From a virus (taxonomy: Duplodnaviria > Heunggongvirae > Uroviricota > Caudoviricetes), in IMG/VR virus record IMGVR_UViG_3300045988_003495: DNA of 64,000 nt. One strand, given 5' to 3'. The notes under the pieces are model-generated. The model saw only the letters and a program-made list of their open reading frames with translations, did no database searches and was not told where the DNA came from. The translations under genes and the position numbers were made by a program. Shown piece by piece: positions 4,317 through 41,255 of the stretch (its first letter is position 1; the number at the start of each line of letters is the position of its first letter).

Positions 4317-4612
4317 GTAAAACAATTCGAAGAAAAGGTTTAAAGAACGTTCATGGACTCTACGAGTGGAGAAATGAGGTACGTAACAGAGAAAATGCTT
4401 CAGATGTCTACTTCCATTCTGATATGATGTCCAGAAAAGGTGGCTCTTACGACTTCACAAGCCAGCCTTGTAGAGAGATTAAGAAGGCCACTAAACGTCT
4501 TACAAGAACACAAATAAGGCAGCTTTCTAAGACATCCTTCTTAGATGAAGATTTTGATATTGATAGCAAGTCTCCAAAGAAAGCCGCTAAGAACACTTAT
4601 ATGTATTGGTGA
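4313..4612 (+). CDS. hypothetical protein
   Basis: 99 aa ORF, translationally coupled to the upstream gene. Confidence 0.4.
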   Translation: MSKTIRRKGLKNVHGLYEWRNEVRNRENASDVYFHSDMMSRKGGSYDFTSQPCREIKKATKRLTRTQIRQLSKTSFLDEDFDIDSKSPKKAAKNTYMYW

Positions 4613-5854: not shown

Positions 5855-6370
5855 ATGTATCTGTCAAACCTGAAACGTTCGGCTGCAATGTCAGTGTTAA
5901 GACTCAGCTTTGAGGAACGTCAAGAGTTCATTGACTCCCACCAATACGACCCCTCAAACTCCAATCACATGATTCTCTGGAATCGTGAGAGTACTCGTGA
6001 AAGAGTATTATTCCGATATTACCCATACTACACCATAGACAACCTGTATGAATGTTTTGTTGTGAAGAACACCATTACAGTACTTAATAAACTTTGCAGA
6101 TACACAGGTAGTCAATCCTTCACATTAGGTCACCACAAGCCTGTTACAAAAGGTGGTGAACATCACTGCGCAAACTGGTTTATCCAAACTAAAGCTGATA
6201 ACCAGAAGCAAGAAGATAGCCTTCTAAGCACTCCTAAGATGACCTATGAAGAGCAAGAGAGATATATCAAAAATAATATGCCAGATGTGCTTGACAACAA
6301 CTATACAGATTTGGCAATATCTCTCCTGTTGAAGTTTGAGACAGTTTATAGGGCAACTTACAATGGCTAA
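5855..6370 (+). CDS. hypothetical protein with possible HNH-like motif
   Basis: 171 aa; GHHKPVTKGGEHHCANW resembles an HNH core but is not conclusive by eye. Confidence 0.35.
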   Translation: MYLSNLKRSAAMSVLRLSFEERQEFIDSHQYDPSNSNHMILWNRESTRERVLFRYYPYYTIDNLYECFVVKNTITVLNKLCRYTGSQSFTLGHHKPVTKGGEHHCANWFIQTKADNQKQEDSLLSTPKMTYEEQERYIKNNMPDVLDNNYTDLAISLLLKFETVYRATYNG

Positions 6371-7546: not shown

Positions 7547-8038
7547 ATGGATAAGGGTTACTTCGAAAAATACCTAATATACGAACCGGAGACAGGTTTA
7601 CTAATTTGGAAAGTAACCCTTTGCAATACCGCTATTGCTGGTAATGTTGCTGGCACAAGGTCTAAGAAGGGTTATATCCAAGTCCAGATAAATAAGAAGA
7701 GGTACTATGCACATAATATTGCATGGATTATGTCTGGAGGTGAGATACCAAGTGGATATGAGATAGACCACATAGACCTTGATAAATCTAATAATAAGTT
7801 GGAGAATTTAAGACTTAGCACAAAGTCACAAAATCAGAGGAATAGGGGTATATACAAGAATAATAAAACTGGTGTGAAGGGTGTAAGTTTTTGTAAACAA
7901 ACAGGTCTTTACAAAGCAAGAGTCATGCTTTACCATAAAGAATACTTTTGTGGAAGATTTAAAACGGTAGAAGAAGCAAAAGAAGCTGTAATTAAAAAGC
8001 GAATAGAACTTCATGGTGAGTTTGCAAGACATAACTAA
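7547..8038 (+). CDS. HNH homing endonuclease with AP2-like DNA-binding domain
   Basis: 163 aa; HNH_3-type core (YYAHNIAWIMSGGEIPSGYEIDHIDLDKSNNKLENLR) followed by AP2-like segment (GVKGVSFCKQTGLYKARV...GRFKTVEEA). Confidence 0.6.
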   Translation: MDKGYFEKYLIYEPETGLLIWKVTLCNTAIAGNVAGTRSKKGYIQVQINKKRYYAHNIAWIMSGGEIPSGYEIDHIDLDKSNNKLENLRLSTKSQNQRNRGIYKNNKTGVKGVSFCKQTGLYKARVMLYHKEYFCGRFKTVEEAKEAVIKKRIELHGEFARHN

Positions 8039-33815: not shown

Positions 33816-34187
33816 ATGAAAAACAGAACAAACAAAGGCCAGTTTAAAAAAGGCCAGTCTGGAAACCCATCTGGAAGACCAAAAGGCTCTCGTAACAAAA
33901 GCTCACTCGTAAAAGCTCAACTGACCATTGATAATTCTGCTGAGTTCGCTGCAAAGCTGTTTGAGGCGATTGTTACAAGGGACGCGGCTAAGCTTGCAGA
34001 GTTCGGTTTAAACACAGATGACGTAACCATCAAGAGCATGATTGAGGTCGGTAAAACTATCTTTACTCACTCAGCAGGTGAGATGAAAGCACTTGCAGCA
34101 GACACTAAGAAGACTCCTGATAATGGTGGTCAACAACAGACAGATAACAAACCAACGTTCTCTGCTGTAGCGACTCTCAAAAAATAA
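33816..34187 (+). CDS. hypothetical protein with N-terminal GNPSGRPKG motif
   Basis: 123 aa; basic N-terminus KKGQSGNPSGRPKGSRNK. Confidence 0.45.
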   Translation: MKNRTNKGQFKKGQSGNPSGRPKGSRNKSSLVKAQLTIDNSAEFAAKLFEAIVTRDAAKLAEFGLNTDDVTIKSMIEVGKTIFTHSAGEMKALAADTKKTPDNGGQQQTDNKPTFSAVATLKK

Positions 34188-34268: not shown

Positions 34269-35684
34269 ATGAGCGAATTATTTAAACATGCGCACCTTCA
34301 TGCAGGTCGAACTGAAAATGGTGCTGTAAACCATACTTCATCAATGTCTGCTCTTGTAGACTTTTACAAAGCTGCTGGTTCAAGCCGTAGCAATGTAGAA
34401 ATCTTACCAGACCTGTTCTACAAAGCTTTGCGTGAGGATGTTGATGTTGCAGTCCGTATTTTACTGCATATGCGAGATGTACGAGAAGGTATGGGTGAGC
34501 GTAAAGCCTTCAGAACTGTTTTGCTTCAAGCAATTGAAGACAAAGTTTTAGAGCCTACACAGGTTCTTCGCATTATGGATAAGATTGCAGAGCTTGGTCG
34601 CTTTGATGACTTCAAAATCTTTGTAGGTACTCGTTTCGAGACAGATGCCTTCAAACATTTAGAAGCAGCATTACTAGACCCTGCAACAGCAGGTTTAGCA
34701 GCTAAGTGGTTACCACGAGTCAAACCACGTCATAAGCAGTTTGTAAAACGTTTCTGCAAGTTTGCCAACTTGAGTGAGAAAGAGTACCGCACACTGTTGT
34801 CTGCACTATCTGATACAGTTGAGCAAAAAATCTCTGCTAATGAGTTTGGTAAGATTGACTACAGCAAGATTCCTTCACTTGCTGCTGCACGTTACCAAAA
34901 ACTGTTTAACCGTAAGGATGGAGAACGCTACAAAGCTTACATTGAGTCTTTATCAAAGGGCGAGGCTAAGATTAATGCTGGTGCTGTTTACCCATACGAT
35001 GTGATTAAATCTGTCAAGCATGGTAATGCAGATGTTGCCAATGAGCAGTGGAAAGCACTACCAAACTGGATGGCAGAAGGTGAGAACATCTTGTGTATGA
35101 CTGATGTTTCAGGCTCAATGTCTTGGGTGAATCTTGGTTCAATCACTGCCCTTGATATTGGTGTATCACTTGCCTTGTATGTAGCAGAACGTAATACAGG
35201 TTGCTTTAAGGATGAGTTAATGGTTTATTCAACAAACCCTTACTTCATCGAACTGAGTGGTGATTTACGAAACCGCCATCGTCAGGTGATGCGACATGTT
35301 GAATATGGCTCAACTAACCTACAAGCAGCTTTTGACCGCATTCTTGAGGTAGGTAAGAGAAACAACTTGACTCAGAAAGATATGCCAAGTAAGCTTATCA
35401 TCTTCTCCGATATGGAGTTCAATCAGGTTGATGGAGCTAACGGTCGTACAAACTTTGAAGCAATTCAGAGTAAGTACAAAAAAGCTGGATACGAGATGCC
35501 ACAACTGGTATTCTGGTACTTAGCAAACCGTAATGGTACTTGCGAAGTGTCTGTTAAGGATAACGGTGTAGCGATGGTATCTGGTTTCTCTCCAGCCACT
35601 TTAAAAGCTCTGATTGGTGGTGAGAAGTTTGACCCAATCAGCGTAATGCTCAAAGCAGTAATGATTGACCGTTATATCTGGTAA
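34269..35684 (+). CDS. vWA-domain protein with alpha-helical N-terminal domain (TROVE/Ro60-like architecture?)
   Basis: 471 aa; MIDAS-like motif CMTDVSGSMSW then IIFSDMEF in the C-terminal half; helical N-terminal half of about 270 aa. Confidence 0.55.
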   Translation: MSELFKHAHLHAGRTENGAVNHTSSMSALVDFYKAAGSSRSNVEILPDLFYKALREDVDVAVRILLHMRDVREGMGERKAFRTVLLQAIEDKVLEPTQVLRIMDKIAELGRFDDFKIFVGTRFETDAFKHLEAALLDPATAGLAAKWLPRVKPRHKQFVKRFCKFANLSEKEYRTLLSALSDTVEQKISANEFGKIDYSKIPSLAAARYQKLFNRKDGERYKAYIESLSKGEAKINAGAVYPYDVIKSVKHGNADVANEQWKALPNWMAEGENILCMTDVSGSMSWVNLGSITALDIGVSLALYVAERNTGCFKDELMVYSTNPYFIELSGDLRNRHRQVMRHVEYGSTNLQAAFDRILEVGKRNNLTQKDMPSKLIIFSDMEFNQVDGANGRTNFEAIQSKYKKAGYEMPQLVFWYLANRNGTCEVSVKDNGVAMVSGFSPATLKALIGGEKFDPISVMLKAVMIDRYIW

Positions 35685-35702
35685 AAAGTTTTAAAAAGGG
35701 TA

Positions 35703-35731
35703 TTGACAATGTGTTTGATACCCTTTAATAT
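35703..35731 (+). promoter_or_regulatory. sigma70-like promoter with flanking dyad
   Basis: TTGACA, 17-nt spacer, TAATAT; GGGTAT...ATACCC inverted repeat flanks the -35 and spacer. Confidence 0.5.
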
Positions 35732-35793
35732 GTTCTACATAGAAACGAAACGAGAGCTTTTCTAAGATACTGAAAAATATTTTAAAAAAGTTC

Positions 35794-35823
35794 TTGACAA
35801 CCACTAAAAAATAATGTTAAAGT
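35794..35823 (+). promoter_or_regulatory. sigma70-like promoter driving the tRNA cluster
   Basis: TTGACA (35794-35799), 18-nt spacer, TAAAGT; ACCACT...AGTGGT dyad overlaps; first tRNA starts about 25 nt downstream. Confidence 0.5.
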
Positions 35824-35848: not shown

Positions 35849-35924
35849 TCTCTGTTTAGCTCAGCTTGGTAGAGCGTTCCGTTTGGGGCGGTAAGGCCGG
35901 AGGTTCAATTCCTCCAACAGAGAC
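35849..35924 (+). tRNA. tRNA-Pro (anticodon TGG)
   Basis: Manual fold: acceptor tctctgt/acagaga, T-arm ggagg-ttcaatt-cctcc, anticodon loop tttgggg. Confidence 0.65.
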
Positions 35925-35933
35925 CAAATTAAT

Positions 35934-36008
35934 GTTCCAGTAGACAAAATGGTATAGTCACCACTCTTTCAAAGTGGATATTTGAGGGTTCAAATCCCTT
36001 CTGGAACG
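35934..36008 (+). tRNA. tRNA-Glu (anticodon TTC)
   Basis: Acceptor gttccag/ctggaac, T-loop ttcaaat, anticodon stem-loop ccact-ctttcaa-agtgg; CCA encoded. Confidence 0.65.
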
Positions 36009-36103
36009 CCAGTTTTGACAGAAGACCAATTACAGCAAACTTAATCTTATTCATCTGAAGGTAAATCGGACAAAGAAGAGATTTGGTCTGGTCATTAAGA
36101 ATT

Positions 36104-36176
36104 GCGGGTATAGAGAAAGGGCGTCTCACATGTCTCATTAGCATGGTATCGGCAGGTTCGACTCCTGCACCCGCCT
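36104..36176 (+). tRNA. tRNA with CAT anticodon (Met or Ile2)
   Basis: T-arm gcagg-ttcgact-cctgc; anticodon loop ctcatta; acceptor pairing imperfect at the 5' end. Confidence 0.45.
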
Positions 36177-36256
36177 CCAAATTTACAGAAGACCGTATGC
36201 AGCAACAAACTACTTTTTGCGGATAAAAGAAAAAACACGGTCTGGCAATGTATTAA

Positions 36257-36330
36257 GGTTAGGAAGCACATAAGGTATGTGCGGTCGCCTGTTAAGCGAA
36301 TGGCACAGGGTTCGAATCCCTGACTAACCG
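36257..36330 (+). tRNA. tRNA-Asn (anticodon GTT)
   Basis: Anticodon loop ctgttaa; T-arm caggg-ttcgaat-ccctg; CCA encoded. Confidence 0.65.
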
Positions 36331-36342
36331 CCAAATTTAAAT

Positions 36343-36427
36343 GTGTCGTTATCCCGTAGATGGTAGCGGTGGGGACTGTAAATCCCTTGTCATTGAGACT
36401 CGGTAGGTTCGACTCCTACACGGCACA
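36343..36427 (+). tRNA. tRNA-Tyr (anticodon GTA), long variable arm
   Basis: 85 nt; anticodon stem-loop gggga-ctgtaaa-tccct; T-arm gtagg-ttcgact-cctac. Confidence 0.65.
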
Positions 36428-36452
36428 CCAACACTTAGCGAGATACTTAGTT

Positions 36453-36854
36453 ATGAGAGATGAAGTATACAAATCACAACTTGGTATGAGTTTGGGAACT
36501 GCACAAAACAGACTAGTAAAAGATTTGCTATTCGATTTTATATGTAAGACAAATCAAAATAGATGTTTTCAGTGCGGAAAAGAAATGACTAGGGATGATT
36601 TCTCTATCGAGCATAAGACTCCGTGGAGACACAAAGATAATGCAAAAGAACTTTTCTTTTCACTAGATAACATTTCTTATAGCCACCTGCGTTGCAACAT
36701 GAAAGCAGCCAGACCAGCACAGATTTATGATAGAAAGCCTAAGCCAATTAAACACGGCACTGCACACAGCTACTCTAAAGGTTGCAGATGTGATGAGTGT
36801 AGGCTGGCTAAGAATGCTGAGGGTAGGAAGCACTATAACCCCAGAAAGGCGTAG
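36453..36854 (+). CDS. HNH homing endonuclease inside the tRNA cluster
   Basis: CFQCGKEM...FSIEHKTPW...SHLRCNMKAA...CRCDEC; ORF track start 36360 overlaps tRNA-Tyr, in-frame ATG at 36453 is the likelier start. Confidence 0.6.
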   Translation: MRDEVYKSQLGMSLGTAQNRLVKDLLFDFICKTNQNRCFQCGKEMTRDDFSIEHKTPWRHKDNAKELFFSLDNISYSHLRCNMKAARPAQIYDRKPKPIKHGTAHSYSKGCRCDECRLAKNAEGRKHYNPRKA

Positions 36855-36886
36855 GAAGAAGTATTTAAGAAATGGCACATAGTTTT

Positions 36887-36959
36887 GGGGTATTAGTTTA
36901 GACGGTGAAAATACGGGATTATCTCTCCTGAGCCGCGAGTTCGATTCTCACATACCTCG
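36887..36959 (+). tRNA. tRNA with atypical anticodon loop (ttatctc, apparent anticodon ATC; Asp-like?)
   Basis: Good acceptor (ggggtat/atacctc), D-arm and T-arm (gcgag-ttcgatt-ctcac), but A34 and T37 are unusual; Asp is otherwise absent from the cluster. Confidence 0.4.
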
Positions 36960-37110
36960 CCAATTTTGAGAGGGCTATTTAGCCCCTCCCTTAAAGAGTT
37001 CTTACGAGTATCCTTTAAAGGAGCAGAAGACCAAATACAGCAAGTTACTTAAAATTTCAAGCCAATTCAATTTTGAAAAATTTAAAACTTGGTCTGGCTC
37101 AACAAATTTA

Positions 37111-37242
37111 CAGAAGACCGTTTACAGCAAAACTTAAACAATCTATTTCTCGGTAAAGAAAAGGCGAAGGTTCGATTCCTTCACTCGGCAGATGTCGAGT
37201 TGGTGTAATGGTAGCACTTAAGATGATAAACAACGGTCTGGT
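37111..37242 (+). ncRNA. circularly permuted tRNA-like module enclosed by an AGACCGTT/AACGGTCT helix (candidate Y-RNA-like RNA)
   Basis: Order along the strand: T-arm gaagg-ttcgatt-ccttc (37166-37182), acceptor-like hairpin actcggc-agat-gtcgagt (37183-37200), tg, D-arm-like gtgtaatggtagcac (37203-37217); 8-bp closing helix 37115-37122 with 37232-37239. Confidence 0.35.
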
Positions 37243-37392
37243 AATTATCTTTGCAGTAGCTTATGTGGCTAATTATGTCGTCCCATGAGTGCCGATGAAT
37301 TTCCTTAGCATGATTCTAGATTAGCTTAGTAGGAAATGACTCTACAGACCCTTTAGCAAGGTCTGCGTAGGTTACTGCAAAGGCAATTTAAT

Positions 37393-37465
37393 GGAAGTGT
37401 AGCAGAATGGTGATGCGGCAGACTTTTAATCTGACAGGCGATGGGTTCGAATCCCTCCACTTCTA
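37393..37465 (+). tRNA. tRNA-Lys (anticodon TTT)
   Basis: Acceptor ggaagtg/cacttct, anticodon loop cttttaa, T-loop ttcgaat (short T-stem), CCA encoded. Confidence 0.6.
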
Positions 37466-37472
37466 CCAAAAT

Positions 37473-37546
37473 GGTTCAGTCGCAGATAAGGTAATGCAGG
37501 GGTCTCATAAGCCCTATGAATGTGGGTTCGATTCCCATCTGAACCT
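37473..37546 (+). tRNA. tRNA with CAT anticodon (Met or Ile2)
   Basis: Acceptor ggttcag/ctgaacc, anticodon loop ctcataa, T-arm gtggg-ttcgatt-cccat, CCA encoded. Confidence 0.6.
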
Positions 37547-37551
37547 CCAAT

Positions 37552-37623
37552 TGTGGGTTAGCATAAATGGTAATGCAAACGGCTGATAACCGTTAGAAGA
37601 GGGTTCGATACCCTCACCTACAA
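37552..37623 (+). tRNA. tRNA-Ile (anticodon GAT)
   Basis: D-arm gcat-aaatggta-atgc, anticodon stem-loop aacgg-ctgataa-ccgtt, T-arm gaggg-ttcgata-ccctc, CCA encoded. Confidence 0.7.
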
Positions 37624-37641
37624 CCAATTTCAATAAAGTTG

Positions 37642-37670
37642 TTGACATTGATACGTGACTACTTTATAGT
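37642..37670 (+). promoter_or_regulatory. sigma70-like internal promoter in the tRNA cluster
   Basis: TTGACA, 17-nt spacer, TATAGT. Confidence 0.5.
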
Positions 37671-37874
37671 AACCTTAGTTTTCGTTGCGTAGCGTCTATT
37701 TTGCAAATTTAAAATAAATGCAAACGACAATGTTTTTCTGGCAGTAGCTTGATAGGCTAAACACCAGTGAGGTCTTCCAATCCCTCATCAAAGAATTTGG
37801 CGTACTAGCCCACGGTATGATTAATAAGGTGGGCATCTTTAAGGGCTTTCTAAGAGAGTCTTTAAAGATAATTA

Positions 37875-37953
37875 CGGGGCGTATCTCAGCTGTCTTCTAA
37901 ACAGCCGTTAACCGAGTAAGTGGAGTATGCGGGTTCGAGTCCTGCCGCCTCGA
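37875..37953 (+). tRNA. tRNA-like gene, internal arms atypical (possible anticodon TCT, Arg)
   Basis: Clear acceptor (cggggcg/cgcctcg) and T-arm (gcggg-ttcgagt-cctgc) with CCA; gctgt-cttctaa-acagc hairpin would give TCT but leaves no room for a normal D-arm. Confidence 0.35.
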
Positions 37954-38099
37954 CCAATTTAGTTAGCAGATTACTTAGACGACCTAAGCGGGTCTTCCTG
38001 TAGGGAGGTGGTCTGTATCTCATGTTTTCCAGAACATGTAAATAATCTGAGAAGGGGCTTTACAGTGTTGCGAAAATACGGTAAGCTTCGAATTATAGT

Positions 38100-38179
38100 G
38101 TGGGACGATGTTAAGACTCTAAGGCATGAGCAACGGCCTCCAAAACCGTTTCAAAGGGGTTCAACTCCTCCGTCCCATG
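38100..38179 (+). tRNA. tRNA-like gene, possible Trp (anticodon CCA), 80 nt
   Basis: Acceptor gtgggac/gtcccat, T-loop ttcaact, anticodon loop candidate ctccaaa; D-arm region longer than standard. Confidence 0.4.
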
Positions 38180-38195
38180 CCAAAGTCTTATTAGG

Positions 38196-38283
38196 GGTAG
38201 GTAGCGGCTAATGGCAGCCAAACAGTCTTGAAAACTGTTGCCACTGTAGAGATACGGTGAGGGTTCGACTCCTTTACTTACCG
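38196..38283 (+). tRNA. tRNA-Ser (anticodon TGA), long variable arm
   Basis: 88 nt; anticodon stem-loop acagt-cttgaaa-actgt; variable arm about 20 nt; T-loop ttcgact. Confidence 0.65.
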
Positions 38284-38541
38284 CCTAATAAGATTTAAAG
38301 CCAAGCTTCATTCGGATGTTGCTTTGGTATCCCTCGTGTATTGTCGTACACGCACAGTAAAGCACCTAGTAGGTGTCACGGAGAAGAGATAATATCAAGC
38401 TCTCCAAAGGTTCTAGTCACCGGATTAAACAAGACTATGCAAAGACCAAATTAGGTCTTTTTAGAGGGCTTCTAAGGTTATTACAGCTTGTTGTGGAACC
38501 TTGTTGCTTAGGTTCTTAGAAGTTCTCTAAAAAGATTTAAT

Positions 38542-38616
38542 GGGAGATTGACGGTAATTGGTAAACCTACCATCCTTAGAAGTTGGTGTTTGAGGGTTCG
38601 AATCCCTTGTCTCCTA
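38542..38616 (+). tRNA. tRNA with anticodon TAG (Leu-type anticodon on a short-variable-arm scaffold)
   Basis: Acceptor gggagat/gtctcct, anticodon loop cttagaa, T-arm gaggg-ttcgaat-ccctt, A73, CCA encoded; 75 nt. Confidence 0.45.
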
Positions 38617-38626
38617 CCAAATTAAT

Positions 38627-38699
38627 GCAGGTGTAGCAAAATGGTTATGCGGCTGACTCTTAATCAGTAAGACGATGGGTTCAATTCCCTCCACCTGTA
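38627..38699 (+). tRNA. tRNA-Lys (anticodon CTT)
   Basis: Anticodon stem-loop gctga-ctcttaa-tcagt; T-loop ttcaatt; CCA encoded. Confidence 0.65.
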
Positions 38700-38708
38700 C
38701 CAAACATT

Positions 38709-38781
38709 GGGGATGTAGTTTACATGGTTAAAACATAAGTTTTGCAAACTTAAGTACAGGGTTCAATTCCCTGCTTCTCCA
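38709..38781 (+). tRNA. tRNA-Ala (anticodon TGC)
   Basis: Anticodon stem-loop taagt-tttgcaa-actta; T-arm caggg-ttcaatt-ccctg; CCA encoded. Confidence 0.65.
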
Positions 38782-38790
38782 CCAATTAGT

Positions 38791-38862
38791 GCATCCATAG
38801 TTTAAACGGGAAAATTACAGTCTTCCAAACTGAGGTTGAGGGTTCGATTCCCTCTGGATGCT
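38791..38862 (+). tRNA. tRNA-Gly (anticodon TCC)
   Basis: Acceptor gcatcca/tggatgc; anticodon loop cttccaa; T-arm gaggg-ttcgatt-ccctc; CCA encoded. Confidence 0.65.
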
Positions 38863-38872
38863 CCAAATTAAT

Positions 38873-38945
38873 GCTCCTATCGTATAATTGGCTATTACGG
38901 TTGCCTTGTAAGCAACTTATCAGGGTTCGAATCCTTGTGGGAGCA
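38873..38945 (+). tRNA. tRNA-Thr (anticodon TGT)
   Basis: Anticodon stem-loop gttgc-cttgtaa-gcaac; T-arm caggg-ttcgaat-ccttg; CCA encoded. Confidence 0.7.
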
Positions 38946-39034
38946 CCAATTCAGAGGCCAAGTGAAAGACCGCTGGTGTCAACTGAAGACCGTAACAAAT
39001 TCCACGGAGTTGAGTTAGCGGCACAACTTCAGAC

Positions 39035-39106
39035 CTCTTTCATACTCGCTTAGTTTATATGGTAAAACACCACCCTTACAAGATGAAGAAAAAGGTTCAA
39101 GTCCTT
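39035..39106 (+). tRNA. tRNA, probable Val (anticodon TAC)
   Basis: Acceptor actcgct/agtgagt, T-arm aaagg-ttcaagt-ccttt, anticodon loop cttacaa with two mismatches in the anticodon stem. Confidence 0.45.
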
Positions 39107-39110
39107 TAGT

Positions 39111-39185
39111 GAGTACCATGTTCCAGTATCCCAATTGGCAGAGGATGCAAGCTCAAACCTTGTACTAGTGACGGTTCGAATCCGT
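39111..39185 (+). tRNA. tRNA with anticodon CAA (Leu-type anticodon, short variable arm)
   Basis: Acceptor gttccag/ttggaac, anticodon stem-loop gcaag-ctcaaac-cttgt, T-arm gacgg-ttcgaat-ccgtc, A73, CCA encoded. Confidence 0.5.
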
Positions 39186-39193
39186 CTTGGAAC

Positions 39194-39266
39194 ACCAATT
39201 TTGCAGGATTAGTTCAAATGGATAGAGCAACAGTCTACGAAGCTGTTAATAGGGGTTCGAATCCCT
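39194..39266 (+). tRNA. tRNA-Arg (anticodon ACG)
   Basis: Anticodon stem-loop acagt-ctacgaa-gctgt; T-arm agggg-ttcgaat-ccctt; CCA encoded. Confidence 0.7.
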
Positions 39267-39297
39267 TATCCTGCGCCAATTTAAAGAGGCTATTTAG

Positions 39298-39855
39298 ATG
39301 AGATATTTGAAGTATGCTTCATGGATTTTCCTAGCTTTACTAGAACCATTTGCAGCAACCCTAGCAGTCATCTTAGCACCTTTCGTAGTTCCATTCTACA
39401 GTGAGAAGAAAGGGCATCTACCTTTTGGATTCAGATGGATGGAGACCTATGACAACCCGATTGATGGTGATGAAGGCCACGTTAAAAGATGGGCTAAGAT
39501 TAGAAAGATTGGTAAGCTGGGTGTCTACATGCAGAGAGTCGGATGGCTCTGGAGAAACAAAGCTTATAACTTCTCTTACCATGTATTAGGAAGAGATGTA
39601 AAAGATGTTACTAAGTGGAAAGGTAATATCAACGTAAGTTCTGACCCTGAAGATAATCAGACTGGTTATCTCCTAATGTGGAATAGCAATGCTTGGGGAT
39701 TATTTGCTTTTATCCCATCAATTAAAGTCTTTGGTAAACAGTTTTACTGGAGAATTTATATTGGATGGAAACTAAAAAGCGTTGTCCCAGAAGAAAGAGC
39801 ATTCTCAAGGGAAAGAGTTATGTTGGCATTCTTTATTCATCCACTGAGAAAGTAA
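39298..39855 (+). CDS. hypothetical membrane protein encoded inside the tRNA cluster
   Basis: 185 aa; N-terminal hydrophobic region (WIFLALLEPFAATLAVILAPFVVPF); Trp-rich. Confidence 0.35.
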   Translation: MRYLKYASWIFLALLEPFAATLAVILAPFVVPFYSEKKGHLPFGFRWMETYDNPIDGDEGHVKRWAKIRKIGKLGVYMQRVGWLWRNKAYNFSYHVLGRDVKDVTKWKGNINVSSDPEDNQTGYLLMWNSNAWGLFAFIPSIKVFGKQFYWRIYIGWKLKSVVPEERAFSRERVMLAFFIHPLRK

Positions 39856-39863
39856 AGATTTAA

Positions 39864-39936
39864 AGGGGATTAGTTTACAAGGTTAAAACCTCGGTCTTTG
39901 AAATCGAAGAAGTTGGTTCAATTCCAACATCCCCCA
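39864..39936 (+). tRNA. tRNA-Gln (anticodon TTG)
   Basis: Anticodon stem-loop tcggt-ctttgaa-atcga; T-arm gttgg-ttcaatt-ccaac; A1-C72 mismatch; CCA encoded. Confidence 0.6.
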
Positions 39937-39941
39937 CCAAT

Positions 39942-40017
39942 GCTCCATTACTCCAATTGGCAGAGAGGCCAGACTTAAAATCTGTGTTATGTATCGGTTC
40001 GAATCCGATATGGAGTA
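39942..40017 (+). tRNA. tRNA with anticodon TAA (Leu-type anticodon, short variable arm)
   Basis: Acceptor gctccat/atggagt, anticodon stem-loop ccaga-cttaaaa-tctgt, T-arm atcgg-ttcgaat-ccgat, A73, CCA encoded. Confidence 0.5.
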
Positions 40018-40027
40018 CCAAATTTAG

Positions 40028-40100
40028 CGGTATAGCATAACTGGCAATGCAACAGTCTCTGAAGCTGTCCTATTAAGGTTCAAATCCTTATGCCGCTGCC
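40028..40100 (+). tRNA. tRNA-Gln (anticodon CTG)
   Basis: D-arm gcat-aactggca-atgc; anticodon stem-loop acagt-ctctgaa-gctgt; T-arm taagg-ttcaaat-cctta; CCA encoded. Confidence 0.6.
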
Positions 40101-40133
40101 ACTTCTAAGGGTTCTTACGAGAGTCCTTAAATG

Positions 40134-40206
40134 TGGCCTTATCATAAACGGTAATGACCTATGCTGTGAACATGGTCTATGCGGGTTCAAATCCCGTAGG
40201 TCACCC
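40134..40206 (+). tRNA. tRNA-His (anticodon GTG)
   Basis: Anticodon stem-loop ctatg-ctgtgaa-catgg; T-arm gcggg-ttcaaat-cccgt; discriminator C73; CCA encoded. Confidence 0.65.
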
Positions 40207-40215
40207 CAATTTATA

Positions 40216-40289
40216 GTCCAAGTAGCTTATATGGTTAAAGCGCGTGTCTGAAAAACATGAGAAGAGGGTTCAAATCCCACTGGACTACC
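40216..40289 (+). tRNA. tRNA-Phe (anticodon GAA)
   Basis: Acceptor tagtcca/tggacta; anticodon stem-loop cgtgt-ctgaaaa-acatg; T-loop ttcaaat. Confidence 0.55.
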
Positions 40290-40307
40290 AATTTCAAAGG
40301 TGCTTAA

Positions 40308-41041
40308 TGAAAGAGATGACAGAACAAGGTAAGGAGATTTTTAATCTCTTAAAAACCGGTAAAGGGTTTTCTAACCCACTTATTACTGGTGCAGCAGTTC
40401 TCGGTGGAACCGTAGCTGCCTCTACATCACTTGTAAACTCTATTAGTTCTGTAACAGACCCTACAATGAAGGATAAACTTGTTGCTGCTGGACTTACAAC
40501 AGTCCTTCTAAACAGCTTTACAACAAGCCTGACAAGCACTACAGCAACTACTAAGACCCTAACAGACTATGGTCAAAAATCTATTGATGAGTTTTCATCA
40601 CGTATGCAGGTAGCAAAGGGATACTCCAATGTTATGGGTGCAGCAGGAGAACAAGTTGGTTGTACACCATTCAGTGGTATTATGGGTGTTGCTACAGAGT
40701 ATGGTCAGCAAGCTATTGACACTATTAATAATGCACTAGATGGCGTTAACGATGTATTAAGTGACTTACAAGATGCTATTGATAAGGGTCTTGATACTGT
40801 TTCTGATTTAGCTAACCAAGCTGTTAGTAAGATTAATGAAGGTATCTCAAAGATTACAGCTTATGCAGATGAAGTTGTGCAGATGATTGAAGAAGAAGCT
40901 GCCCTTATTGCAGAGTACCTTAAAACGAATATCAATGGGTTCTTAGCAGGTATCTTACCAGACTGGTTTGATGATGCTTGTAAAACTGGTGTAATTGACA
41001 CTATTGCAACACCAGAAATGAAGAACGCATTACAGAAATAA
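40308..41041 (+). CDS. hypothetical Ser/Thr-rich protein
   Basis: ORF track start 40244 overlaps tRNA-Phe; ATG at 40308 (MKEMTEQGKE) is the likelier start. Confidence 0.4.
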
Positions 41042-41042
41042 T

Positions 41043-41132
41043 GGAAGATTAACCCTAAAAGGTAAGGGAGCAGTTTGCTAAACTGCCAGTAGCTGAGAAA
41101 TCGGTGTACCAGTTCAAGTCTGGTATCTTCCT
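41043..41132 (+). tRNA. tRNA-Ser (anticodon GCT), long variable arm
   Basis: 90 nt; anticodon stem-loop gcagt-ttgctaa-actgc; T-arm accag-ttcaagt-ctggt; CCA encoded. Confidence 0.7.
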
Positions 41133-41140
41133 CCAATTTT

Positions 41141-41213
41141 GAATCCGTGACAGAAATGGATATGTGCCTGTCTGCAAAACAGGTTTATAAGGGTTCAAGT
41201 CCCTTCGGATTCT
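41141..41213 (+). tRNA. tRNA-Cys (anticodon GCA)
   Basis: Anticodon stem-loop cctgt-ctgcaaa-acagg; T-arm aaggg-ttcaagt-ccctt; CCA encoded. Confidence 0.7.
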
Positions 41214-41255
41214 CCAAGTTATTTTACTCTCTCTCTCAATTAAAATAATAATAAT

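What the first reader, a model, noticed from the sequence alone, without database searches (positions are those of the whole stretch)
36018..38460. Family of AGACC...GGTCT stem elements scattered through the tRNA cluster
At least six intergenic sites share a stem built from AGACC(A/G)(A/T) and its complement (A/T)(T/C)GGTCT, several with the further shared 5' context cAGAAGACC...ACAGCAA: 36023-36089, 36190-36243, 37028-37095, 37115-37239 (which encloses the permuted tRNA-like module), 37345-37365 and 38440-38460. They enclose 6 to 110 nt. Such conserved helices could be processing sites, small stable RNAs, or homing-endonuclease or recombination targets.
Basis: seen in the sequence. Interest (0 to 1): 0.5.

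Follow-up and report, generated by a model that had tools for sequence, protein, structure and literature searches.

The report
Phage Y-like RNAs beside Ro60-like gene
Four of the six flagged hairpins are copies of a small structured RNA, one of them a tRNA mimic, that sits next to a Ro60-like RNA-binding protein gene in hundreds of unrelated phages, so they are most likely that protein's partner RNAs, an RNA family I could not find described.

Summary
Four sites (36016-36094, 36183-36249, 37021-37100, 37108-37244, + strand) share one design. A 7-8 bp closing helix (AGACCRW/WYGGUCU) is followed by 3 nt, an invariant CAGCAA box, a variable insert, the 3' strand and an invariant G. The other two sites (37345-65, 38440-60) are ordinary short hairpins inside other structures.

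The gene just upstream of the tRNA cluster (34269-35684; Pfam DUF2828+DUF7788) models as a Ro60 ring plus vWA domain; its top 11 PDB matches are all Ro60.

The same RNA design, with different but always complementary helix sequences, lies beside homologues of this gene in phages of Listeria, Staphylococcus, Bacillus, Mycobacterium, Campylobacter and Yersinia hosts, and in metagenomic contigs. It is almost always on the gene's strand. A covariance model trained only on unrelated phages picked exactly these four sites as its top hits in the 64-kb window.

Element 4 and many long forms elsewhere enclose a T arm, a closed acceptor-like hairpin and a D arm, which is the YrlA topology.

Best reading: Y-RNA-like partner RNAs of a divergent phage Ro60, co-transcribed with the tRNAs. 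Binding is inferred, not shown. They lack the canonical Y-RNA motif, fail the Rfam YrlA model, and I found no description of them.

The parts
34269..35684 (+). Gene for a 471-aa Ro60-like protein (HEAT-repeat ring plus vWA domain with a DVSGSM MIDAS motif). It is the proposed protein partner of the RNAs and, by synteny, the orthologue of Bas63 gp130.
   Evidence: Pfam DUF2828 + DUF7788, no TROVE hit. PHROG 850 'RNA-binding protein'. AF2 model pLDDT 87.5, pTM 0.88. Top 11 Foldseek PDB hits are all Ro60/Rsr/phage phiLo Ro60, E 4e-9 to 1e-6, TM up to 0.64. Bas63 gp130 is described in 10.1101/2024.10.10.617714.
35703..35823 (+). Two sigma-70-like promoters (35703-35731 and 35794-35823) ahead of tRNA-Pro. 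They are the likely start of the transcript that carries elements 1-4.
   Evidence: Consensus scan gives 10/12 matches for each. No + strand terminator-like site was found between them and the next strong + strand promoter at 37642. These are consensus matches only.
36016..36094 (+). Element 1 (short form). Outer helix 36016-19/36091-94; AGA loop; inner helix AGACCAA 36023-29 / UUGGUCU 36083-89; spacer UUA; box CAGCAA 36033-38; invariant G 36090. It lies between tRNA-Glu and tRNA-Met.
   Evidence: Model R2, built only from unrelated phages, scores it 38.5 bits, E 1.3e-5, the best hit in the window.
36183..36249 (+). Element 2 (short form). Inner helix AGACCGU 36190-96 / ACGGUCU 36237-43; spacer AUG; box CAGCAA 36200-05; G 36244. 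It lies between tRNA-Met and tRNA-Asn.
   Evidence: R2 scores it 28.0 bits, E 2.4e-3. Its outer helix covaries among relatives: TTAC/GTAA versus TTGC/GCAA.
37021..37100 (+). Element 3 (short form). Outer helix GAGC/GCUC; inner helix AGACCAA 37028-34 / UUGGUCU 37089-95; spacer AUA; box CAGCAA 37038-43; G 37096.
   Evidence: R2 scores it 30.1 bits, E 8.7e-4.
37108..37244 (+). Element 4 (long form, tRNA mimic). It has the same closing helix (AGACCGUU 37115-22 / AACGGUCU 37232-39), box (37125-30) and G (37240). Inside are a V-like hairpin 37142-64, a T arm 37166-82 (GAAGG-UUCGAUU-CCUUC), a closed acceptor-like hairpin 37183-37200 (ACUCGGC-AGAU-GUCGAGU), U8 and G9, and a D arm 37203-17 (GUGU-AAUGGUA-GCAC).
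   Evidence: Fold -33.4 kcal/mol, z -2.1. R2 aligns both ends across a 70-nt insertion: 17.9 bits, E 0.37, the 4th best hit in the window. The acceptor-like hairpin covaries fully with phage Moogle, ACCCUUC/GAAGGGU. The same T -> closed hairpin -> D order is seen in about 10 unrelated loci.

Best explanation
The four CAGAAGACC...GGUCUGG elements are small non-coding RNAs of a widespread phage family. They are the Y-RNA-like partners of the Ro60-like protein encoded just upstream at 34269-35684.

Proposed mechanism:
- They are transcribed on the + strand together with the tRNAs, from the promoters near 35700-35820.
- They are released when the flanking tRNAs are processed (RNase P at the downstream tRNA 5' end, 3' trimming at the upstream tRNA).
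- The closing helix (A:U, G:C, R:Y, then four free but paired positions), the CAGCAA box 3 nt after it and the G after the 3' strand form the constant module that the Ro60-like ring recognises.
- The insert is a variable effector module. In elements 1-3 it is an A-rich loop. In element 4 it is a tRNA-shaped domain with T arm, closed acceptor stem and D arm but no anticodon loop. This would tether the protein to tRNA-recognising or RNA-decay/repair enzymes, as YrlA and Yrn1 do for bacterial Rsr.
- The particle plausibly acts in RNA surveillance or counter-defence during infection.

Shown here: the RNA family, its structure, its strand, its genetic linkage to the gene, and the Ro60 fold of the protein.
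Inferred: transcription and processing, physical binding, and function.
For: 1. Protein. The AF2 model (pLDDT 87.5) matches only Ro60 structures at the top of the PDB search, over its full length. Homologues are annotated 'Ro-like RNA binding protein' in mycobacteriophages.

2. Linkage in viral contigs. A sequence-plus-complementarity scan gave 86 hits on the gene strand, 17 on the opposite strand, and 9 and 2 in reversed-sequence controls; it covered 75 non-Felixounavirus viral-contig loci encoding homologues plus the window itself. Model R1 gave 72 hits at E<=1, 70 of them on the gene strand. Of the 69 hits outside the window, 54 lie within 500 nt of the gene.

3. Linkage in very different phages. 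The same design lies next to the gene in Listeria, Staphylococcus, Bacillus, Mycobacterium, Campylobacter, Yersinia and Citrobacter phages, where the proteins are only 29-85% identical.

4. Independent replication. In 80 loci from bacterial genome and MAG contigs, R2 gave 76 hits at E<=0.1. All 76 are on the gene strand, in 53 of the 80 loci.

5. Clean membership test. R2 contains no Felixounavirus-like sequence. In a filter-free scan of the whole window it ranks the four elements 1st to 4th, and the next hit is noise at E 2.4.

6. Structure. Helix positions 4-7 take nearly every sequence but stay paired: 221 of 224 cells in 32 rows outside the 25-sequence seed alignment (though several were first found by the complementarity scan). 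CAGCAA is invariant in 53-56 of 56 rows, and the 3' G in 55 of 56. RNAalifold on an unfitted alignment recovers the closing helix and the T stem.

7. tRNA-mimic module in YrlA order in the window and about 10 other loci. Rfam YrlA gives sub-threshold hits on such long forms (28.7-38.9 bits).

8. Operon-like layout. Krypton555 has gene -> short -> long -> short -> a hairpin with U-tract that I read by eye as an intrinsic terminator (no terminator scan was run on this locus). In several phages a mini-element abuts the gene's Shine-Dalgarno sequence, as expected of an autoregulatory operator for an RNA-binding protein.

9. Literature. Bas63, of the same genus, has a Ro60-like gp130 directly upstream of its tRNAs. 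It counters the Ppl defence, and the authors guessed that Y RNAs hide among the tRNA genes.
Against: - There is no expression, end-mapping or binding data for any of these RNAs.
- The canonical Ro-binding motifs (GGUCCGA in metazoa, GNCGAAN0-1G in bacteria) are absent from the 5' strand.
- The Rfam YrlA model does not hit element 4 even at E<=10 in a 161-nt search. The Y_RNA model does not hit either.
- The protein is a different Pfam family (DUF2828/DUF7788) from TROVE, so its RNA-binding mode may differ from Ro60's.
- In the window the elements lie 330-1,560 nt downstream of the gene, behind their own promoters, so co-regulation with the gene is not guaranteed.
- About a third of homologue loci gave no hit with the short-form models. 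Some of these have short flanks or long forms only.
- Seed sequences were chosen by complementarity, so pair counts on the seed alignment are circular. The strand and reversed-sequence controls, and the independent locus sets, are the real tests.
Confidence: 0.72

Rival explanations
1. The elements are cis-acting operators or UTR elements. Their only role is autoregulation or stabilisation of the Ro60-like gene's mRNA, or of the polycistronic transcript. They are not trans-acting partner RNAs.
For: In many loci a compact copy sits 5-15 nt before the Shine-Dalgarno sequence and start codon of the gene (L009, L013, L048, L054, L060, L061, L070). In Vibrio phage XZ1 (L083) the copy's 3' strand overlaps the start codon itself. 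Most hits lie within 500 nt of the gene on the same strand.
Against: In the window and in Moogle the four copies lie among tRNAs, behind separate promoters and up to ~1.5 kb from the gene. Loci carry 2-4 paralogues with different inserts, including full tRNA mimics, which an operator would not need. This reading still implies that the protein binds the motif, so it complements the main explanation more than it competes with it.
Confidence: 0.1
2. This is a real structured RNA family, but it is bound by something other than the Ro60-like protein (host PNPase, Hfq, RNase, or another phage protein). The gene linkage would then reflect only a shared pathway or shared regulation.
For: No binding data exist. 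The canonical Ro-binding motif is absent. The loops are A-rich and sometimes carry repeated AGCAA motifs, which could be sites for single-strand RNA-binding proteins.
Against: Linkage to this one gene persists across phages of hosts in at least four bacterial phyla, while the neighbouring genes differ. The mini-element at the gene's ribosome-binding site is the classic signature of binding by the encoded protein.
Confidence: 0.08
3. The elements are spacer hairpins that serve as processing or stability signals for the tRNA cluster: entry sites or barriers for RNase E, RNase P, RNase III or exonucleases.
For: In the window they occupy tRNA-sized slots between tRNA genes on the tRNA strand. The outer helix would protect the ends.
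Against: The same family lies next to the gene in loci where ARAGORN finds no tRNA at all (L008, L010, L019, L043, L050, L056). Most inter-tRNA spacers in this cluster are 2-10 nt and carry no such element. An invariant single-stranded CAGCAA box and a tRNA-mimic insert are not needed for processing.
Confidence: 0.06
4. The elements are DNA-level inverted repeats: homing-endonuclease or recombination targets, or MITE-like mobile elements.
For: An HNH endonuclease ORF sits inside the cluster at 36453-36854 and is variably present among relatives. The loops of elements 1 and 2 differ between strains.
Against: The strand bias is strong: 70 of 72, and 76 of 76. G-U pairs occur in the helices and would be A-C mismatches on the other strand. 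The asymmetric box and the 3' G are not palindromic. All four elements are present with or without the HNH ORF. Helix sequences differ in nearly every phage, which is incompatible with a shared nuclease site.
Confidence: 0.02

Closest known systems
Bacterial Y RNAs YrlA/YrlB with Rsr (Ro60), e.g. the Salmonella rsr-yrlBA-rtcBA operon (Chen et al. 2014, PMC4201824; Rfam RF02553)
   Same: - Several small RNAs are encoded beside a Ro60-fold gene on the same strand.
- The 5' and 3' ends pair into a stem that carries a conserved motif.
- One paralogue holds a tRNA-like domain in the order V, T arm, closed acceptor stem, D arm. Shorter paralogues, like YrlB, lack it.
- An RtcB ligase gene lies ~1.3 kb downstream in Listeria phage LP-064.
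   Different: - The protein belongs to Pfam DUF2828+DUF7788, not TROVE.
- The conserved RNA signature is an AGR helix, 3 nt, CAGCAA, and a G after the 3' strand. It is not GNCGAAN0-1G.
- The YrlA model scores 28.7-38.9 bits on relatives' long forms (threshold 69), aligns only through the tRNA-like part, and misses window element 4 altogether.
- In the window the RNAs are embedded in a tRNA cluster.
Thermus phage phiLo Ro60 with Yrl1/Yrl2 (PMC12135203; PDB 9KOP, 9L5Y)
   Same: A phage-encoded Ro60-fold protein with two adjacent Y-like RNAs. It is the best structural match to the window protein (E 3.8e-9). It was proposed to hijack host PNPase.
   Different: Sequence identity is only 16%. The phiLo RNAs were picked by a CGAA motif in an internal bulge, and neither a CAGCAA box nor a tRNA-like domain is reported for them.
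Bas63 (Felixounavirus) gp130, a Ro60-like counter of the Ppl defence (preprint 10.1101/2024.10.10.617714)
   Same: Same genus and same position directly upstream of the tRNA cluster, so it is almost certainly the orthologue. The authors proposed that Y RNAs partner with it.
   Different: They only speculated that some annotated tRNA genes might be Y RNAs. No RNA was identified. The candidates found here lie in the gaps between the tRNA genes.
Metazoan Y RNAs
   Same: Modular design: a terminal stem that binds Ro60 plus a variable loop that recruits other factors, with several paralogues per genome.
   Different: The conserved GGUCCGA/bulged-C helix is absent. Transcription and processing context differ. 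The Rfam Y_RNA model gives no hit.
Circularly permuted tRNA genes and two-piece tmRNA
   Same: Element 4 has the 3' half of a tRNA (T arm, 3' acceptor strand) before the 5' half (5' acceptor strand, D arm).
   Different: The acceptor stem is closed by a 4-nt loop with no CCA end. There is no anticodon arm, because the closing helix takes its place. There is no tag reading frame. This is the YrlA topology, not a gene for a functional permuted tRNA.

Membership tests
Y RNA (functional class: ncRNA partner of a Ro60 protein) | Encoded adjacent to, or co-occurring with, a Ro60 orthologue | tested here: met
   The upstream gene has the Ro60 fold. The RNA design co-occurs with homologues of this gene, on the gene's strand, in three independent sets of loci. 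The protein is DUF2828-type, not TROVE-type.
Y RNA (functional class: ncRNA partner of a Ro60 protein) | 5' and 3' ends pair into a stem that carries a conserved protein-binding module, with a variable internal loop or module | tested here: met
   The closing helix is supported by compensatory changes in nearly every phage. The box and the G are invariant. Inserts range from about 20 to 170 nt.
Y RNA (functional class: ncRNA partner of a Ro60 protein) | Canonical Ro-binding sequence (GGUCCGA in metazoa; GNCGAAN0-1G near the 5' end in bacteria) | tested here: not met
   The 5' strands read (C)AGAAGACC... in the window and WAGRNNNN elsewhere. The only GNCGAAG string in the window elements (GGCGAAG, 37163-37169) lies at the base of the T arm of element 4 and is not kept even in close relatives (GGAGAAG in L001).
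Y RNA (functional class: ncRNA partner of a Ro60 protein) | Physically bound by the Ro60 protein in vivo | not testable with these tools
   This needs RIP/CLIP or EMSA.
YrlA (Rfam RF02553) | Covariance-model score at or above the gathering threshold (69 bits) | tested here: not met
   No hit on the window at the gathering threshold, at E<=10 over 5.8 kb, or at E<=10 over 161 nt around element 4. Long forms in other loci score 38.9, 38.3 and 28.7 bits.
YrlA (Rfam RF02553) | tRNA-like domain: T arm, closed acceptor-like hairpin and D arm in that order, with tRNA invariants | tested here: met
   Element 4 has the T loop UUCGAUU, a 7-bp closed hairpin with 0 nt after the T stem, U8 and G9, and a 4-bp D stem whose loop carries A14, G18, G19 and A21. 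The acceptor-like hairpin covaries with Moogle.
tRNA gene | Cloverleaf with anticodon arm and free acceptor end | tested here: not met
   ARAGORN calls none of the four elements. The Rfam tRNA model gives only a truncated 15.7-bit match to the T arm and 3' acceptor strand of element 4.
Intrinsic terminator (considered for 38440-38460) | G+C-rich hairpin followed by a U-run that is free to act as a release signal | tested here: not met
   AAAGACC-N6-GGUCUUU plus UU looks terminator-like. However, the scan did not call it, and the U-run is the 5' strand of an 87-nt hairpin, 38455-38541 (z -5.6).

The most novel reading that the evidence does not exclude
A large, previously unrecognised class of phage ribonucleoproteins. 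A divergent Ro60-like ring (DUF2828/DUF7788) has thousands of detectable homologues in public protein data, including about 710 deposited phage genomes. It would work with its own family of modular scaffold RNAs, defined by an AGR helix, a CAGCAA box and a 3' G. These RNAs carry interchangeable effector modules (tRNA mimics, A-rich loops and other conserved inserts). The particle would act in RNA surveillance or repair, or as a counter-defence (Ppl in Bas63), and the protein would autoregulate through a miniature copy of the motif at its own ribosome-binding site.
Probability: 0.45. Interest if true: 0.8.

Novelty: new variant of a known kind. Interest (0 to 1): 0.68.

Why it matters
Ro60 and Y RNA particles are known in animals, some bacteria and a few phages, but the DUF2828-type Ro60-like proteins have no known RNA partner. 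These proteins are common in phages infecting E. coli, Salmonella, Listeria, Staphylococcus, Campylobacter, Vibrio and Mycobacterium.

- **Concrete candidates.** In Bas63 this protein is already linked to escape from a defence system, and its authors could only guess that Y RNAs hide among the tRNAs. The elements found here are testable candidates with a simple sequence and structure signature.
- **Ready experiments.** The invariant box, the G and the helix give obvious mutagenesis targets.
- **Annotation.** Model-based searches could annotate hundreds of phage genomes. In at least one inspected record (Staphylococcus phage S-CoN_Ph16) a tiny 'hypothetical protein' ORF is annotated over such an element, and no inspected record annotates these elements as RNA.
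- **tRNA clusters.** Some of the non-tRNA 'spacers' in large phage tRNA clusters would be explained.

Tried and rejected
- **Rfam.** Scans at the gathering threshold and at permissive E-values gave no family for the four elements. The only match was a chance-level 19.7-bit one to a Dictyostelium RNA.
- **PDB by sequence.** Sequence and profile searches of PDB with the protein found nothing. Only the fold search revealed Ro60.
- **All six sites as one family.** Rejected. The two extra hairpins fail the model and belong to other structures.
- **A locus that seemed to share the motif.** L057 has CAGAAGACC just after the gene, but it lies inside what reads as a reverse-strand coding region with no box or partner strand. 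It is a chance match.
- **K-turn or loop-E reading of the constant module.** No G-A tandem is in the right place. I checked this by eye only.
- **Pair counts on the seed alignment.** Pairing is 100%, but this is circular because the seeds were picked by complementarity. I do not use it as evidence.
- **Model for the long forms.** A MAFFT alignment of 11 long forms was too ragged in the acceptor and D regions to build a good model. RNAalifold recovered only the closing helix and the T stem.
- **Literature.** Searches for DUF2828, Ro-like, Bas63 and phage Y RNA found no description of these RNAs. The supplement of Chen 2014 that lists phage YrlA candidates is not held, so some overlap with their mycobacteriophage hits cannot be excluded.


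Full report
**What the window is.** The region matches Felix O1-like phages of E. coli and Salmonella (genus Felixounavirus) at 92-97% identity. It carries a + strand cluster of 25 tRNA genes, 35850-41216. An HNH endonuclease ORF sits inside the cluster at 36453-36854.

**Checking the observation.** All six sites exist.
- CAGAAGACC and GGTCTGG each occur exactly four times in 64 kb, always as a pair.
- AGAAGACCNNNNNCAGCAA matches four times without mismatch. Shuffles gave a mean of 0.75 even with two mismatches allowed.
- By contrast AGACC occurs 84 times and GGTCT 54 times, and 14 such pairs lie within 140 nt of each other. A bare 5-bp AGACC/GGTCT stem is therefore unremarkable.

Folding shows a common architecture in the four elements. 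An inner 7-8 bp helix AGACCRW/WYGGUCU has innermost pairs that covary (AA:UU versus GU:AC). Outside it is an AGA/G internal loop, then an outer 4-bp helix that also covaries (UGAC/GUCA, GAGC/GCUC, UUAC/GUAA). In element 2 the outer helix has an A-C mismatch in this window. Relatives have perfect TTAC/GTAA or TTGC/GCAA pairs at that position.

The other two sites are different things. The hairpin at 37345-37365 has UAGCAA rather than CAGCAA and is one arm of a separate ~135-nt structure, 37248-37383 (MFE -48.7 kcal/mol, z -4.1). The T-run after the 38443-38458 hairpin is the 5' strand of an 87-nt hairpin, 38455-38541 (z -5.6).

**The neighbouring gene.** The last protein gene before the cluster, 34269-35684 on the + strand, matches Pfam DUF2828 and DUF7788 and PHROG 850, 'RNA-binding protein'. 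Sequence searches of PDB find nothing.

An AlphaFold2 model built on 38 homologues has pLDDT 87.5 and pTM 0.88. Its eleven best Foldseek matches in PDB are all Ro60: Thermus phage phiLo Ro60, Xenopus Ro60 with and without RNA, human Ro60/La complexes, and Deinococcus Rsr. These matches are full length, with E from 4e-9 to 1e-6 and TM up to 0.64. Generic vWA domains follow only at E > 1e-3. The protein is therefore a Ro60-like HEAT ring plus a vWA/MIDAS domain (DVSGSM).

Homologues occur in 710 deposited phage genomes, including Escherichia, Salmonella, Mycobacterium (annotated 'Ro-like RNA binding protein'), Vibrio, Listeria, Staphylococcus, Campylobacter, Enterococcus and Bacillus phages. They also occur in thousands of metagenomic proteins.

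**The RNA family beyond this phage.** I fetched 80 viral contigs encoding homologues. In many of them a tRNA cluster starts right after the gene.

A distant relative, L006 (protein 48% identical), has four analogous elements. Three of them have different stems but the same box:
- AGAGCAC-auu-CAGCAA...GUGCUCU
- AGGACAC-uuu-CAGCAA...GUGUCCU
- a long AGAGCAGU-uu-CAGCAA...[T arm etc.]...ACUGCUCU

The fourth (7668-7745) is a variant whose stems are arranged differently.

I then ran a mechanical scan over the 75 non-Felixounavirus loci plus the window (915 kb in all). It looked for a 7-nt stem, a 3-nt gap, CAGCAA, and the complement within 200 nt. It gave 86 hits on the gene's strand, 17 on the other strand, and 9 and 2 in reversed-sequence controls.

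A covariance model (R1) built from 25 short forms found 72 hits at E<=1, 70 of them on the gene strand. Of the 69 hits outside the window, 54 lie within 500 nt of the gene.

The model also finds the design in deposited genomes of very different phages:
- Listeria LP-064: two copies just upstream of the gene.
- Staphylococcus S-CoN_Ph16: three copies just downstream.
- Bacillus PK-3, Campylobacter F365, Yersinia P778 and Citrobacter Moogle.
- Mycobacterium Krypton555.

None of these records annotates the elements as RNA. In the Staphylococcus record a tiny 'hypothetical protein' ORF (4471-4560) is annotated over one element (4479-4550).

In Krypton555 the layout is gene, short element, long tRNA-like element, short element, then a hairpin with U-tract that I read by eye as an intrinsic terminator; no terminator scan was run on that locus.

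**Consensus from 56 hits.** Helix position 1 is A:U in about 46 of 56 rows. Position 2 is G:C in 51 of 56. Position 3 is R:Y. Positions 4-7 take almost any sequence but stay paired (221 of 224 cells in 32 rows outside the 25-sequence seed, though several of those rows were first found by the complementarity scan). A 3-nt spacer (N-U-W) follows, then CAGCAA (each position conserved in 53-56 of 56 rows; CCGCAA is a rare variant). A G follows the 3' strand in 55 of 56 rows. G-U pairs occur in the helices, which fits an RNA read from this strand.

**Two non-circular tests.**
1. Model R2 was built only from 29 elements of unrelated phages, with no Felixounavirus, L006 or Moogle sequence. Run without filters over the whole window, it ranks the four elements first to fourth, all on the + strand: 38.5, 30.1, 28.0 and 17.9 bits, with E of 1.3e-5, 8.7e-4, 2.4e-3 and 0.37. 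The last spans a 70-nt insertion. The next hit is noise at E 2.4.
2. In a fresh set of 80 homologue loci from bacterial genome and MAG contigs (Clostridia, Bacteroidales, Chloroflexi, Rickettsiales and others), R2 gives 76 hits at E<=0.1. All 76 are on the gene strand, in 53 of the 80 loci, mostly 20-400 nt upstream of the gene.

**The tRNA-like member.** Element 4 (37108-37244) keeps the closing helix, box and G. Inside it are:
- a V-like hairpin;
- a T arm (GAAGG-UUCGAUU-CCUUC);
- directly after it, a 7-bp hairpin closed by AGAU, whose strands are the 3' and 5' acceptor strands;
- U8 and G9;
- a D arm with A14, G18, G19 and A21.

In Moogle the acceptor-like hairpin is ACCCUUC/GAAGGGU instead of ACUCGGC/GUCGAGU, while the T and D arms are kept. 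The same order (T, closed hairpin, D) inside the same closing module occurs in L006, L009, L023, L037, L059, L068 (twice), L077 and Krypton555.

This is exactly the topology described for bacterial YrlA (PMC4201824). Rfam's YrlA model gives sub-threshold hits on such long forms: 38.9, 38.3 and 28.7 bits against a threshold of 69. The alignment runs through the tRNA-like part only, and the closing helices are marked as non-pairing. The model does not hit window element 4 at all.

Other long forms carry different conserved inserts. The family therefore looks modular: one constant module plus exchangeable inserts.

**How it most likely works.**
- *Shown:* the family, its structure and strand, its linkage to the gene, and the Ro60 fold of the protein.
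- *Inferred, transcription:* the RNAs are transcribed with the tRNAs. Promoter-like sites lie at 35703 and 35794, and the scan called no + strand terminator-like site before the next promoter at 37642.
- *Inferred, processing:* they are freed by tRNA processing at their flanks.
- *Inferred, binding:* the Ro60-like protein binds them through the constant module. The inserts recruit other factors, as in the Rsr-Y RNA-PNPase machine.
- *A further hint of direct binding:* in many phages a miniature element sits immediately before the gene's Shine-Dalgarno sequence. In Vibrio phage XZ1 its 3' strand overlaps the start codon. This is the usual layout of an autoregulatory operator.
- *Functional context:* Bas63, of the same genus, has a Ro60-like gp130 directly upstream of its tRNAs that counters the Ppl defence. 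The authors speculated that some annotated tRNAs are Y RNAs. In Listeria phage LP-064 an RtcB ligase gene lies ~1.3 kb downstream, which echoes the bacterial rsr-yrlBA-rtcBA operon.

**Rivals.**
- tRNA-processing signals: unlikely, because the elements flank the gene in loci where no tRNA was found.
- DNA-level targets for the HNH enzyme or for recombination: unlikely, given the strand bias, the G-U pairs, the asymmetric conserved parts and independence from the HNH insertion.
- A purely cis-regulatory role, or a different binding partner: cannot be excluded without experiments.

**Comparison and novelty.** The elements work like Y RNAs (YrlA and YrlB), but they fail two membership tests for the described families: the canonical Ro-binding motif and the Rfam models. 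Their protein is also a different Pfam family from TROVE.

Phage Y-like RNAs are known next to canonical Ro60 genes in mycobacteriophages, CcrColossus, Bacillus phage G and Thermus phiLo. I found no description of the CAGCAA-box family or of RNA partners for DUF2828-type proteins. The phage supplement of Chen 2014 is not available here, so some overlap with their mycobacteriophage hits is possible.

I rate this a new variant of a known kind. My confidence that the RNA family and its linkage to the gene are real is about 0.95. My confidence in the whole explanation, including binding by the Ro60-like protein, is 0.72.

Noticed in passing
window 37248-37383 and about 37741-37874: Two further non-tRNA structured stretches in the cluster share the start GCAGUAGCUU..GGCUAA. 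The first folds into a four-way junction closed by an ~18-bp stem (MFE -48.7, z -4.1); the second has z -3.6. No Rfam family matches them. One arm of the first (37345-37365: CAGACC-cuu-UAGCAA-GGUCUG) resembles a miniature of the constant module, but this may be chance.
   Followed up: partly
window 38455-38541: An 87-nt, nearly perfect long hairpin (MFE -33.6, z -5.6) just before tRNA-Leu. Its function is unknown.
   Followed up: no
window 37569-37752 and 37684-37873: Sub-threshold Rfam matches to permuted tmRNA (32.4 bits, threshold 47, E 7.7e-4) and to tmRNA (15.4 bits). They overlap tRNA-Ile and the following spacer.
   Followed up: no
window 37875-37953 and 38102-38176: tRNA-like sequences that ARAGORN did not call. 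Rfam tRNA scores the first at 31.2 bits, above the 29-bit threshold. The second gets a weak tRNA-Sec-type match of 23 bits. Moogle annotates a tRNA-Arg at what appears, from its place in the gene order, to be the equivalent of the first.
   Followed up: no
window 36887-36962: ARAGORN reports the tRNA-Asp with anticodon AUC (A at position 34) rather than the usual GUC.
   Followed up: no
window 36453-36854: An HNH endonuclease ORF (PHROG 23251) lies between tRNA-Tyr and tRNA-Asp. Most relatives lack it: they cover only 58-60% of a query spanning it. This points to a mobile insertion.
   Followed up: partly
L086 1429-1980 (Listeria phage LP-064): A ROOL RNA-like match (87.4 bits, threshold 99.1, E 2.8e-16) lies ~1 kb upstream of the Ro60-like gene. 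An RtcB-like ligase and a phosphohydrolase lie ~1-1.5 kb downstream. Together these form an RNA-repair-type neighbourhood.
   Followed up: no
L009 1759-1806, L013 2854-2906, L048 ~5902-5960, L060, L061, L070, L083 2959-3011: A miniature copy of the element ends 5-15 nt before the Shine-Dalgarno sequence and start codon of the Ro60-like gene. In Vibrio phage XZ1 (L083) its 3' strand overlaps the start codon itself. This may be an autoregulatory operator.
   Followed up: partly
window 33816-34187: A small DUF5681 protein gene lies directly upstream of the Ro60-like gene. A small gene sits in the same position in Moogle and Yersinia phage P778. I did not test whether it belongs to the system.
   Followed up: no
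L010, L015, L019, L045, L056 short forms: Several short-form loops carry one or two extra AGCAA or CGCAA repeats after the CAGCAA box. These could be additional single-strand binding sites.
   Followed up: no
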